Notes: generated by a model from the sequence alone, not told the origin. DNA of 64,000 nt from Azolla caroliniana (GCA_043228905.1 JBHGNT010000016.1:18910001-18974000); one strand, 5' to 3'. Positions 6,366-43,300 are shown, counted from the stretch's first letter. A program made the numbers and translations.

Positions 6366-7230
6366 TGTTGAGAATCAAGCTCAACATAGTGCAACGTGTG
6401 AACAAACCCTAAACCCTAAACCTTTTGTCGACCAAGGCTATTGGGGTTACATCAAAGGAGCACAAGAAAACCGATCCGACCCGAAAGACGCCGACTACGC
6501 AACATGGGAGCAAGCGGCAAGCAGAGTGATGTATTGCTTGGCGACATGTGTTCACGACCACATGCTCGTCTACATTCCAGAAGCCGAGACGCCAAAGGAA
6601 GCGTGGGAGAATCTACGAAAGATTTTCGCCGCCAACACAACTTCGAGAAAGCTTTAACTCCGCCAAGAGTTGAACAACATCCAACAAAGGGATATGTCCA
6701 TCATGAGCTACACCTTGAAGATCAAGGAGCTTAGCGACTCACTCGGCTCGATAAGTGTCAATGTGGACGATGATGAGATGGTGCAAATATGCCTCGGCGG
6801 CCTTGCACCACGGTTCGGCGCGATGAGGACCGTTGTACTAGCACGGGAGAATCTGCCCTCCTTCTTCGACCTTCAATCCATGTTGTTGGTCGAAGAAAAC
6901 CACGTTCGAACAAGAAGCAACGCCTCGAAAGGCCACATGCTTTACTCACACTCGGACGGAGGAAGAGGACGCGGCCGTGCGAGAAGAGGCCGATTCGGCC
7001 AAGGATGAGGTGTACGAGGCCCGACTTATGAAAACAACTCGCAATTTCGGCATCAAGACGGAAGCCATCGAGGAACCTTCGGAAGAAGGGGGAGCTTCCA
7101 TTCCGGTCCAAGCCAACAAAACTCGGTCGAATGCGGAAATTGCGGAAAAATCGGTCACCACGAAGAAGAGTGCCGTAAGAAGATACGTGAGTCGGCTTTC
7201 ACTAGCCGACAACTCACCAATTACGCCTCG
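6366..7230 (+). mobile_element. Copia A2, 5' half (truncated 5' LTR plus gag)
   Basis: Starts TGTTGAGAATCAAGCTCAACATAGTGCAACGTGTGAACA, identical to the minus-strand LTR at 30428; gag GYWGYIKGAQE...CGNCGKIGHHEEEC is homologous to ORF 16772-17899; preceded by CTATT. Confidence 0.9.
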
Positions 7231-8722
7231 GATGCAAAGCTTACGCATTTATCCCCAGGGAGAAAAGGACCAAGTTGGCACCCCATGCAACAAAATGCAT
7301 ATTTCTCGGTTATGGAACAAATGGGGATTTCAGCTATCAGCTATGGGACCCGGAGAATCGGAAATTGATATGAAGCGGTGATGTGGCCTTCAATGAAGAC
7401 TCTATCCTCTCTAAGCGGAACCAATAGAAAATAGTGGGCAAAAAAGACCCTTTCGAAATCAACAGAGAAGTAATAGAAAGACCAACCCACCAGGCCGAAT
7501 CGGAGATTCGACAAACAGTCAAACTCGACCAAGCCAACAATACACCTGCCGATTCCAAATCGGTAGGAGGTTCACTGGTCAAACTAGAAGACAAAGCCGA
7601 ATCAACAAGAGTTGAAAAAGGAAAAGTCGACAAGGTGCAAGTCGGAAACAGAGTGGACCCAACCGAGACACCCAAGGCCAAAGGGAAAAACAGATCCGAG
7701 TCAGCTAAGTCTCTCAATCCTGAAGCAGGGGAGGATGAGGTGACATCGCCGAAATACTATCACAGGGGCGAGTCATCTGGAAGGACTCCTAACATAAGTG
7801 GTTCAACAAATGCCGGTCGGCTGACATAGACGATCGAAGGATCTGAACTGATCATTACAGCAATCAGGAGATTTGGACGAAATTGAAGGCCGACAAAGTT
7901 CTATCAACCGGGCCGGCCTTGACTACGTCAACTACATGGATGCAAGCGAACCTATCACATACGAAGAAATTATAGCCGCACCAGATGCTGATACATGGCT
8001 CCAAGCCATGACGTCTGAGATGGACTCGATTCATAATAATCGGACATGGGAGGTGGTCGAACTACCAACCGGAAAGAAGCCACTGCCATGTAAATGCGTT
8101 TTTCAGTACAAATATGTATCCGATTCGGAAAAACCGAAATACAAAGTTCGGCTCGTCGCGAAGGGCTTCAAGCACGAACATGGAGTCGACTATGACGAGA
8201 TATTTTCTCCAGTAGTCAAGATGACCACCCTTCGACTCCTACTCGGGGTCGTGGTGGCAGAGGACTTAGAGCTTGAGCAACTCGACGTAAAGATGACATT
8301 CCTACACGGACGGAGACTTGGAAGAGGACATTTACATGTCCAAACTGGCAGGCTTCTCGGCAACGGGGGAGGAAAGTCACCTTGTATGCCAATTGAACAA
8401 AAACCTATACAACTTAAAACAAGCGCTGAGGATGTGGTACCAGAAGTTCGACTCCTACATCTGACAACTCGGTTACAACTGGTCCGACTCGACAACTAGC
8501 CGACGAGTCCAGGATTTATCTGATCCTATATGTCGACGACATGTTGATTGTAGGGAGCCATCAAGCCGAAATTGGAAAGCTAAAACAGAGGCTTCACGAC
8601 AAGTTCGTGATGAAGGAACTTGGACAAGCCCGACACATATTGGGCATGAGGATCAAGAGAAAACGGAAGACGAAGACTCTCCAACTCTCCCAGTCCGACT
8701 ACATCCAAAAGGTGCTGAGACC
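7231..8722 (+). pseudogene. Copia B integrase C-terminus and RT (degenerate)
   Basis: [72 protein letters not shown]; frameshifts present. Confidence 0.9.
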
Positions 8723-40343: not shown

Positions 40344-43300
40344 GGAGGAACCCTAGGTCATTCTTGGATGAAGGTGGTATTTGAAATATTTCCAATTTTT
40401 GATCCTATGTAAGGTGGTATACCGTAGGACTATAATGACTATATGAAAAATAAAGGGAACCAAGAAGGGTTATGTCGTGCAATCAAATTGAGCATCCCAT
40501 TATTGAATAAATATTTAGTTGAATGAAAATTGTTTAAGTAAATTATAGAATGGTATCCCTAAGACCAAGCTTGCATTATATGCACATATTTCATCCTAAT
40601 CCATCAACAAATGGATGGCATTATCCTTTGCAATATTGGAAACAAATGTGTAATCTTCCGAGTATCCTTGAATCTGGAATCATTGGCAAAACACCTTTTC
40701 AATGAATATTTTGTGGTATTTTCGTACCCTTAATGATGTTGGATTTACCTATAGTAGAGGGAACTTGGTGGTACAAATACCAATCACATGGGGTCAGACA
40801 TGGCCTTTGAGTGCAAAGGCAAAAGGGAGGTTGACTATAAATTTTGTACCCGCCCATTTTGAATAATATCTCATTGTTGTCGTGGGTATTTGCACCTACT
40901 TTGTCAAATGTGAATAGGACTATTGGAGTCCTTAACCAAGGAAGATGGGTTGAAGAATATTTCTTTAGAGTTTGTTGAAGTCAAATGTTCAAGGTGTTAT
41001 GAAGGCATGCACTTGATTGATTCCCCCTTCAGTAATCATGGGAGCAATTAGAGTTTCCCCGTGAGAATGTGTTCAAATGGGTGGGTGCACATGAATTAAG
41101 GTTCCCACTTTAATGTGTGCTTGTATGGCAAAATTTGAAGTTTGTGGGAGAGTTGCCCAAGAATGTGTGGGAATTATATGTTCACAAATGATGCCCACAT
41201 TTGTGTGATTGTATGTGAATTTTCACTTTGAGTATCTTGTCTTGATCTTGATTCTTAACTTGTGTTACATGTATCAATGTGTCAAGCAGGCAAATGCATG
41301 ATGAACACTCTTCGGTGTATGGAATCTTTATGCGTATATGGGTAAATTTGTGACAACTTATCTTTTTTTGTGCATGTGTATGTGTATGTGGATCTTTGGG
41401 GGGAGGGGGCGGGTGTACTTATAAAGTGAATGTTGGGAGAGGTATGGATTGGGGGGTGGTTAAAATAATTTAGGTAGGGTGAGCTCTAGGCTTAAAGATC
41501 GAGTCTAGGATTAGGTAGCAAAACATGAGCTAAGGATAGGATTGGGTAATAAAACAGGCTTTTGCTAGGTAAATGACAAGAAGGACATGATGTTGCACCT
41601 ATGTAGTCGTATTGTTGATCAACAACAAAACTTGTGATGCTTCTCCATGCATGCGATCAAATAAATACTCCACACAAGATAACTCTTTGAGTTTTGTAAT
41701 GGAGAACTATACAAAATAGAAATATTTGAGTTCTATCAGGGCCCAAGTAACCATGATGAGAGTTAGTGTACATGTTCACAACACAATATCCTCACGATGA
41801 TCAAATCGAACATATCACAAGAGCCCAACTTAGGAGTTTAGCATGTGCTTACACTTTGCTTTGAACTTCCCATATTCTTATAATTTGGGCCTAACCATAT
41901 ATGTCTTGGTGAGTATGAGAGCAATACCTTATGTCAATGACGTTAACTAACTTCAATGTCCAAAGCAAGCAATTTAAGTTCTTCAATTTAAAAATAGTAG
42001 CCATGAAACAAATGAGGACCTACATGAACAAACATGGTTTGAAGAATCTTTCACAACATGGACACACATTCAAGGCAAGGTATATAAGGATACCCAATAT
42101 GATTGATACAAAAAAACCCACTTGTGCACATGTAACATTGAAGAGTTTGAAAGCATAAGAAGATACTTAAAATCACAAATTTGAAATAAAATGTTTTCTT
42201 GCATAATATATTGCTTCAAATACCATATGATTGATTATTCATAGGTATCCACTCTTGAGAATCAGAAGCATACCCCTTCCAACAAACATAGAGCGCCCTT
42301 AATTGTTACTTTACATCTGGGTTCTATGTAAGTTATATGTTAAAGTGTAAAGACTTAATAATGCAAACATTGGTAAATTGTGATTATGCAACAATTTTGT
42401 GGTGCAAAAAATGTAAATTTAGGAAATCATCCTTGAAAAAGGTAATGTTGTGGTGACTCTTCTTTTTAATTGAAGTATAGTTAGAACTTAGTCTATATAT
42501 ATTATTTAGTATTATTTAAATTATTTTCTAGAATCGAGAGCTTGTATCAGGGTAGGAGCTTTGATTGTGTTGTGATTGAGAGCTTGTATTGTCGATTCTA
42601 ATAAGGAGGTTTGATTGAGTGTTCTAATCTTGATCTCATCTCAAAAGCTCGGTTCATGGGAGCTCATCTTAAGAGTTCAACTCAAGTTCTCGACTTGGGA
42701 GTTATATTCAAGACCTTGGTTGATCAGGGATCATGAGCTCCACCACAGAGCTTTGTTCAAGAGCTCAAGGTTTGAAAATGAGGAGCTAAAATCAAATTTT
42801 TAAACACCTACATGTACTTGACCTTTATTCCTTTTCAAGAATTGAAGGAATTCTTAAATTCCTAGGTCTTTGAAGACATTTTTCTCCCTCGATAGGTTTG
42901 AATAGTCATTGTGGCACAACACATAGCTTAGAACTTGGAATAATGTGAACAACACACACAAAGGGTTGCGAAAGACTACCATAAACAAAAACAACCACAT
43001 AAGAGTGAGCCAAACTTGACAATTGAAGTAATCTTTGAGCATGGGAGCGAGAATGAAGGCAAAGGATCATATACTTAATCTCTTAGACACAAAACATGAA
43101 TTTTGGAGATAACAATTGTAAAGATGAGATTGATAAACCTCAATCGTGGGAATGTGTAGATCCACCAAATCAGACTTCCATAAGAGAACCTATAGCTAAC
43201 AAAGAAATGAGTCAACTAGGAATCAACAATGATCTGGATCTAGAGGTCAACATAGCCCTACTTCCGCAATTATTAACTTGATAGCTCTACCACTTAGAGA

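What the first reader, a model, noticed from the sequence alone, without database searches (positions are those of the whole stretch)
6366..40348. A 30-kb inversion made by reciprocal exchange between two unrelated Copia elements
Seen: A2 gag (+) stops at SRQLTNYAS (7230) and becomes family-B integrase (GCKAYAF). At 37516-37521 on the minus strand, B integrase (LWPGKQPTYGRLRNF) becomes A2 gag (NYDDRGGMFVM). Flipping 7230-37516 restores both frames: NYASNFNYDDRGGMF and TYGRLRNFGCKAYAF. The TSDs agree independently: A2 has CTATT at 6361-6365 and on the minus strand at 29976-29980; B has CCTCC (minus, 40344-40348) versus CGTCC (16232-16236). Inference: a nearly lossless inversion joined through only a few bases of microhomology, not LTR-LTR homologous recombination.
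Basis: seen in the sequence. Interest (0 to 1): 0.8.

Follow-up and report, generated by a model that had tools for sequence, protein, structure and literature searches.

The report
Blunt 30-kb inversion splitting two retrotransposons
Two unrelated old retrotransposons in a plant genome have swapped halves across a 30-kb stretch that was most likely flipped when two DNA breaks were rejoined crosswise, losing only about 2 and 5 bases; it is a clean but ordinary kind of rearrangement, and no host gene was recognised inside it.

Summary
The swapped halves are real and best explained by a 30,295-bp inversion (7228-37522). Family-A gag ends at 7227 and family-B integrase starts at 7228. On the minus strand B ends at 37523 and A resumes at 37522. 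Natural copies elsewhere in the genome carry the halves in line: 2 bases apart in 17 of 17 A loci, 5 apart in 20 of 26 B loci. Both junctions are unique in the assembly, and short-read contigs of run X2 cross them (the right one with 30 letters on its short side). A2's target-site duplication is swapped as stated. B's is weaker: 4 of 5 bases, and that pentamer is also element A1's. The most likely mechanism is two double-strand breaks joined crosswise by classical end-joining. The retrotransposons are probably bystanders in a TE nest. No uninverted allele was seen. A new example of a known kind.

The parts
6361..6365 (+). Left TSD of element A2 (CTATT)
6366..6403 (+). 38-bp remnant of the A2 5' LTR; identical to the start of the A2 3' LTR, but also to 5 other A copies, so not diagnostic
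6404..6424 (+). Filler with 19 bp of perfect (AAACCCT)2.7 in place of about 665 bp of LTR, leader and gag start; unique in the assembly
6425..7227 (+). A2 5' half (Copia gag; Retrotran_gag_2)
7227..7228 (+). Left inversion junction (A 5' half | B 3' half); blunt, no microhomology seen
   Evidence: X2 contig 7162-7266
7228..37522 (.). Inverted segment, 30,295 bp
7228..16231 (+). B 3' half: integrase end, RT (RVT_2), RNase H region and 3' LTR 15953-16231, interrupted by a nested stack at 8720-15057
16232..16236 (+). CGTCC: exact TSD of A1 and probable (4/5) right TSD of B
16237..29414 (+). Element A1 (family A, LTR K2P 0.027) with a nested young Gypsy at 19626-27556 (K2P 0.001); a passenger
29420..29975 (.). 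556-bp near-single-copy host spacer; the only non-TE DNA identified inside the inversion
29976..29980 (-). Right TSD of A2 (CTATT on the minus strand)
29981..37522 (-). A2 3' half: gag end, protease (Pol_BBD), GAG-pre-integrase, internal deletion, RT, and 3' LTR 30428-29981; nested LTR element at ~31147-35997 (K2P 0.063)
37522..37523 (-). Right inversion junction (B 5' half | A 3' half); blunt, no microhomology seen
   Evidence: X2 contig 37493-37632
37523..40343 (-). B 5' half: 5' LTR 40343-40070, gag-pol up to integrase; ~440-bp insert at 37790-38231
40344..40348 (-). Left TSD of B (CCTCC on the minus strand)

Best explanation
The window holds reciprocally swapped halves of two unrelated Copia retrotransposons, most likely because the 30.3-kb segment between them was inverted when two double-strand breaks were joined crosswise, likely by classical non-homologous end-joining with trimming of about 2 and 5 bases. 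Inferred order: B inserted first (LTR K2P 0.107), A2 inserted nearby in the opposite orientation, and then one break fell in A2 gag and one in B integrase. The inner fragment was religated backwards, giving one A-to-B and one B-to-A chimera. Shown: junction positions, uniqueness in the assembly, presence in an outside run's contigs, small losses relative to natural copies, no visible microhomology. Inferred: the ancestral arrangement (not seen), the repair pathway, and that the elements were passive targets rather than causes.
For: Natural copies carry the halves in line: 17 of 17 A loci with a 2-base gap and 20 of 26 B loci with a 5-base gap (others: one 9, one misplaced, four not paired). 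One natural B copy (L057) matches the window pieces in order from LTR to LTR across the two sites. The best non-self hit of both B halves is the same locus. B's two LTRs are closer to each other (K 0.107) than to the 3 other B LTRs tested (0.131-0.234). A2's TSD is swapped (p 0.0017). Each junction has 1 match in the assembly at up to 3 mismatches. X2 contigs cross both junctions. Microhomology run length was 0 in 17/17, 22/22, 21/22 and 16/17 comparisons. No A-B nucleotide similarity. Literature passages: inversions from two induced breaks in Arabidopsis show mostly 0-2 bp loss (PMC7474074), and 0-5 bp indels in 16 of 26 radiation SV junctions were attributed to c-NHEJ (PMC8775353).
Against: No uninverted allele was observed. 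The reference copies are 7-10% (A) and 12-20% (B) diverged from these elements, so 1-2 bp of microhomology or a single inserted base could be hidden. In PMC8775353 all deletion-only SV junctions had microhomology, and junctions with neither microhomology nor insertion were only 2 of 33 rearrangements. The right-junction contig has 30 letters on its short side, one fewer than the tool's 31-letter rule. X2 could be the sample behind the assembly. B's TSD evidence is shared with A1.
Confidence: 0.7

Rival explanations
1. Same inversion, but joined by microhomology-mediated (polymerase theta-type) end-joining on 1-2 shared bases that later mutation hides.
For: The reference copies are diverged. 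Deletion-only junctions in irradiated Arabidopsis all carried microhomology (PMC8775353 passages). Maize centromere chimeras and deletions often appear microhomology-mediated (PMC4806543 abstract).
Against: Zero shared bases in 76 of 78 copy comparisons across the two junctions; the exceptions are one misplaced locus and one single base. It would need private substitutions exactly at the breaks. Losses of 2 and 5 bases are small for a resection-based pathway (own knowledge).
Confidence: 0.15
2. A double template switch during replication (FoSTeS/MMBIR-like) inverted the segment, perhaps helped by local inverted repeats.
For: The nest holds a foldback palindrome at 10105-11547 and many inverted repeats.
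Against: No microhomology, templated insertion or copy-number change at the junctions. The palindrome is 2.9 kb from the nearest break.
Confidence: 0.06
3. A transposase (alternative transposition, later excised) or a retroelement integrase made the cuts.
For: A ~440-bp insert that looks like a DNA transposon lies 267 bp from the right break. The losses of 5 and 2 bases equal the Copia TSD length and the integrase-trimmed dinucleotide (own knowledge).
Against: No transposon end or duplication sits at either junction. Integration duplicates target bases rather than deleting them, and none of the four ends is a terminal CA (read).
Confidence: 0.05
4. Assembly artefact, or two independent chimeric retroelements made by reverse-transcriptase template switching.
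For: The region is highly repetitive, and only one outside run was shown to cross the junctions.
Against: X2 contigs carry both junctions. A and B share no nucleotide similarity that could mislead an assembler. Each chimera has LTRs of two different families. The junctions are single-copy, exactly reciprocal, and the TSDs are swapped.
Confidence: 0.04

Closest known systems
Retrotransposon recombination-mediated inversions in human and chimpanzee (PMC2603318; abstract and passages read)
   Same: Both breakpoints lie in retroelements that become reciprocal chimeras, and non-matching TSDs give the polarity. The paper also describes one L1-L1 inversion attributed to two breaks and repair.
   Different: Those arise by recombination between homologous, oppositely oriented Alu or L1 pairs. 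Here the two elements share no detectable nucleotide similarity.
Two-break end-joined inversions in Arabidopsis: CRISPR-induced (PMC7474074) and gamma-induced (PMC8775353); passages read
   Same: Size range (15 kb upward in the radiation set) and junctions with 0-5 bp loss.
   Different: Those are induced and have a known ancestor. This one is natural, old and polarised only by TE anatomy. Deletion-only junctions in the radiation set had microhomology, which is not seen here.
Spontaneous non-TE inversions in Chlamydomonas mutation-accumulation lines (PMC9977147; passages read)
   Same: No micro- or macrohomology, short deletions at breakpoints, NHEJ inferred.
   Different: De novo events in an alga, not inside LTR elements.
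Staggered-break inversions in Drosophila (PMC1885836; passages read)
   Same: Not ectopic recombination; end-joining proposed.
   Different: Those leave inverted duplications at the breakpoints. Here bases are lost and nothing is duplicated.
Break-repair rearrangements in a maize retrotransposon nest (PMC4806543; abstract and passages read)
   Same: Chimeric and deleted retrotransposons plus inversions in a plant TE nest, attributed to break repair.
   Different: Centromeric, found by synteny, and often microhomology-mediated.

Membership tests
Two-break end-joined inversion (c-NHEJ-like) | Two reciprocal junctions in inverted orientation | tested here: met
Two-break end-joined inversion (c-NHEJ-like) | Only a few bases lost or gained | tested here: met
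   2 bases in A (17 of 17 loci), 5 bases in B (20 of 26 loci)
Two-break end-joined inversion (c-NHEJ-like) | No long homology and little or no microhomology | tested here: met
   1-2 hidden bases cannot be excluded
Two-break end-joined inversion (c-NHEJ-like) | Ancestral uninverted arrangement seen in another haplotype or species | tested here: inconclusive
   none seen; short contigs and repeats limit the test
Two-break end-joined inversion (c-NHEJ-like) | Dependence on Ku/Lig4 | not testable with these tools
   Historic event; the pathway is inferred from junction form only
Retrotransposon recombination-mediated inversion (ectopic homologous recombination) | Homologous inverted elements crossing over at equivalent positions | tested here: not met
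   gag joined to integrase; no blastn hit in 12 of 12 A-B piece comparisons; RT 38% aa identity (using A1 for family A)
Retrotransposon recombination-mediated inversion (ectopic homologous recombination) | Chimeric elements with swapped TSDs | tested here: met
   A exact; B 4 of 5 and shared with A1
Staggered-break inversion | Inverted duplication at the breakpoints | tested here: not met
   Gaps, not overlaps, relative to natural copies
Transposase-mediated (alternative transposition) inversion | Transposon end and target duplication at a breakpoint | tested here: not met
   nearest candidate insert is 267 bp away
Ty1/Copia retrotransposon (A2 and B) | Copia gag and RVT_2, integrase before RT, TG...CA LTRs, 5-bp TSD | tested here: met
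   A2: Retrotran_gag_2, Pol_BBD, gag_pre-integrs, RVT_2. B: RVT_2; its integrase label rests on a recalled motif, and the one B 5'-half ORF scanned had no Pfam hit. LTR ends and TSDs.

The most novel reading that the evidence does not exclude
The inversion and the telomere-repeat-filled deletion 0.8 kb upstream came from one local multi-break event, in which telomerase added about 2.7 repeats to one end before all ends were rejoined, and the inverted allele still segregates in the species. That would be a natural, base-resolved record of clustered break repair in a plant, readable from one genome through swapped TSDs.
Probability: 0.08. Interest if true: 0.5.

Novelty: new member of a known kind. 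Interest (0 to 1): 0.3.

Why it matters
It is a base-resolved natural plant inversion that can be polarised from a single genome. It shows that TEs at both breakpoints need not mean TE-driven recombination, a common inference in pan-genome work. A genome-wide scan for reciprocal chimeras with swapped TSDs could estimate how often blunt end-joining, rather than ectopic recombination, makes small inversions in TE nests. The biological effect of this one event is probably slight: no host gene was recognised inside, and the nearest exons seen lie about 4.8 kb and 14.6 kb outside the breaks.

Tried and rejected
Empty-site test: the left flank, right flank and spacer have no paralogue that could show the ancestral order (self only, plus four 60-81 bp hits for the spacer). 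Metagenome scan with a B-specific 25-mer: 0 hits. Runs X1, X5 and X12 had no cover at 37517-37525, and no left-junction piece was listed for X1, X5 or X6 (table cut, 9,550 pieces not shown). X1 has one single-copy-depth contig that leaves the window sequence at 37583. The tool warns that filtered records leave holes, so this counts neither for nor against a second allele. The 38-bp LTR remnant was rejected as proof that the A halves come from one copy: it is identical in 5 other A loci. The integrase coincidence (5 and 2 bases) was rejected because the bases are deleted, not duplicated, and there are no CA ends. Earlier scan findings were not available. Paper searches: a five-term search found 0 papers. 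Searches gave the comparators; none of their listings described an inversion between two unrelated Copia elements polarised by TSDs, but the library lacks most subscription journals and supplements were not read. PMC7759462 passages added nothing on breakpoint sequence. No absolute dates were attempted because no substitution rate was on hand.

Full report
Setting. The window is G000:C16:18910001-18974000 in a 523-Mb assembly, a plant by its TTTAGGG-type repeat and intron-rich genes (inference). Bases 6366-40343 are a nest of LTR retrotransposons. Host exons lie outside it: about 1-2435 (a Hexapep hit below cut-off) and from about 52115 (DUF4094). Inside, I identified only one near-single-copy stretch, 29420-29975. 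The inner ORFs of the nested element at 32000-35000 had no Pfam hit.

The observation. The + strand reads family-A gag to SRQLTNYAS and then switches family. The minus strand reads WPGKQPTYGRLRNFNYDDRGGMFVMR. With the 551 bases around the left junction as query, only the window itself matched full length, and 39 of 39 other hits stopped at query 277-279. With the right junction, 40 of 40 other hits began at query 258-268. Each search scored only 40 of about 3,400-3,500 candidates, so I also ran 26-letter junction patterns with up to 3 mismatches: 1 match each, the window's own. The chimeras are therefore not an amplified family.

The halves belong together. Ten longer stretches were fetched and compared with the window. 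Five A-family copies run from the window's 7227 straight on to its 37522. Three B-family copies run from about 37523 on to 7228. One of them, L057, matches the window's B pieces in order from LTR to LTR. The other two stretches were the window's neighbours: one holds a further B copy, the other had no match. The best non-self hit for each B half separately was the same locus on C11. B's two LTRs, now inverted and 24 kb apart, differ by K2P 0.107, less than either differs from the three other B LTRs tested (0.131-0.234). A2 has an exact 5-bp TSD on both ends, now on opposite strands (chance 0.0017). Two cautions apply. The 38-bp 5' LTR remnant is identical to A2's 3' LTR but also to five other A loci. 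And CGTCC at 16232-16236 is the exact TSD of A1, which sits flush against B's 3' LTR; it may double as B's TSD (4 of 5 bases, chance 0.0052).

Exact junctions. Of the first 50 loci I dropped 4 self loci and 3 duplicates. I then placed the four window pieces, unjoined, on the remaining 17 A and 26 B loci. All 17 A loci have 2 bases between the ends seen in the window. Twenty of 26 B loci have 5; one has 9, one was misplaced, and four failed the 70% identity pairing (three of these still spaced 5). The breaks are thus 7227|7228 and 37523|37522, and the inverted segment is 30,295 bp. Shared bases across the joins were 0 in 17/17 and 22/22 comparisons at the left junction and in 21/22 and 16/17 at the right. 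The exceptions were the misplaced locus and one single base. Blastn found nothing between A and B near the breaks or in 12 of 12 piece comparisons. An RT piece of B is 38% identical to that of A1 over 142 aa. These 7 double-counted bases equal the 7 that are missing, and since 7 is not a multiple of 3, no single flip puts both frames in register.

Not an assembly artefact. Run X2 (organism A) has a 105-letter contig on 7162-7266 with 2 differences, 66 and 39 letters either side of the left junction. It also has a 140-letter contig on 37493-37632 with no difference, with 30 letters on the A side, one short of the tool's 31-letter rule. X2 may or may not be the sample behind the assembly; either way it is a separate short-read assembly. 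Contigs of X1, X2 and X5 (organism B) run from the unique flank into the A2 LTR up to 6391, so the A2 insertion is shared with organism B. Whether the inversion is shared or polymorphic stays open.

Relative timing. LTR K2P distances are B 0.107, the element nested in A2's 3' half 0.063, A1 0.027 and the Gypsy in A1 0.001. The inversion must postdate both B and A2 (inference); it cannot be placed relative to the passengers.

Mechanism. Reciprocal joins, losses of 2 and 5 bases, and no homology or duplication fit two simultaneous breaks religated crosswise by classical end-joining (about 0.7). Induced inversions in Arabidopsis look like this. Ten of 14 CRISPR junctions lost nothing and three of the other four changed 1-2 bp (PMC7474074, passages). 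Sixteen of 26 radiation SV junctions had 0-5 bp indels, which the authors read as c-NHEJ (PMC8775353, passages). Spontaneous non-TE inversions in Chlamydomonas showed no homology and short deletions (PMC9977147, passages). Against my reading, the radiation study found microhomology at all deletion-only SV junctions, and neither microhomology nor insertion in only 2 of 33 rearrangements. With reference copies 7-20% diverged, a hidden 1-2 bp match or one inserted base remains possible (about 0.15). Homologous recombination, staggered-break duplication and transposase-made ends each fail a defining feature. That both breaks fall in Copia elements needs no cause, since nearly all of the interval is TE.

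Comparison and novelty. Reciprocal chimeras with swapped TSDs as the mark of an inversion are in print for Alu and L1 (PMC2603318, abstract and passages). Those mostly involve homologous pairs, with one case put down to two breaks. Chimeric retrotransposons and inversions from break repair are described in a maize centromere (PMC4806543, abstract and passages). Searches listed no report of this exact case. The library is partial and supplements, which may hold breakpoint tables, were not read. Telomere-repeat insertion during break repair is known in mammals (PMC7215372, start of abstract in a search listing only). The labels 'integrase' for B's break region and 'telomere-type' for AAACCCT rest partly on recalled motifs.

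Verdict. It is a new member of a known kind with little likely effect on the host. Interest 0.3.

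Noticed in passing
window 6404-6424: About 665 bp of A2's 5' LTR, leader and gag start are replaced by a filler with 19 bp of perfect AAACCCT repeat. It is unique in the assembly, lies 0.8 kb from the left break, and looks like a telomere-repeat insertion at a repaired break.
   Followed up: partly
window 10105-11547: Foldback palindrome centred near 10845 (556-bp arms, K2P 0.037) in a nested LTR element. It abuts a third Copia element (minus strand, ~11548-15057) that is cut off in RT. B lacks about 400 bp at this nested stack relative to three natural copies.
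   Followed up: partly
window 36626-37072: 231-bp tandem duplication (99%) that includes the junction of a large internal deletion in A2 between GAG-pre-integrase and RT; either recent or an assembly slip.
   Followed up: no
window 37790-38231: ~440-bp insert in B's integrase region with short inverted ends, like a small DNA transposon, 267 bp from the right break; a 76% similar copy lies in L053.
   Followed up: partly
window 16232-16237 and 29415-29419: Element A1 inserted flush against the end of B's 3' LTR and apparently duplicated B's own TSD pentamer.
   Followed up: yes
window 31145-35999: The LTR element nested in A2 (K2P 0.063) has a GC-rich, repeat-laden interior without Pfam hits and no clear TSD. 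The same pentamer CGCGT precedes its LTR (31148-31152) and the LTR at 8789.
   Followed up: no
window 19626-27556: Very young Gypsy element (1 difference in 1,099 LTR bases, 4-bp TSD, long ORFs with RT, RNase H and integrase hits) nested in A1.
   Followed up: partly
L058 (just right of the window): Another B-family copy lies about 4-7 kb beyond the window end and is truncated by an AT-rich repeat tract.
   Followed up: no
window 29650-29795: Two short parts of the host spacer (81 and 60 bp) match four other places at 81-88%, two of them on small contigs.
   Followed up: no
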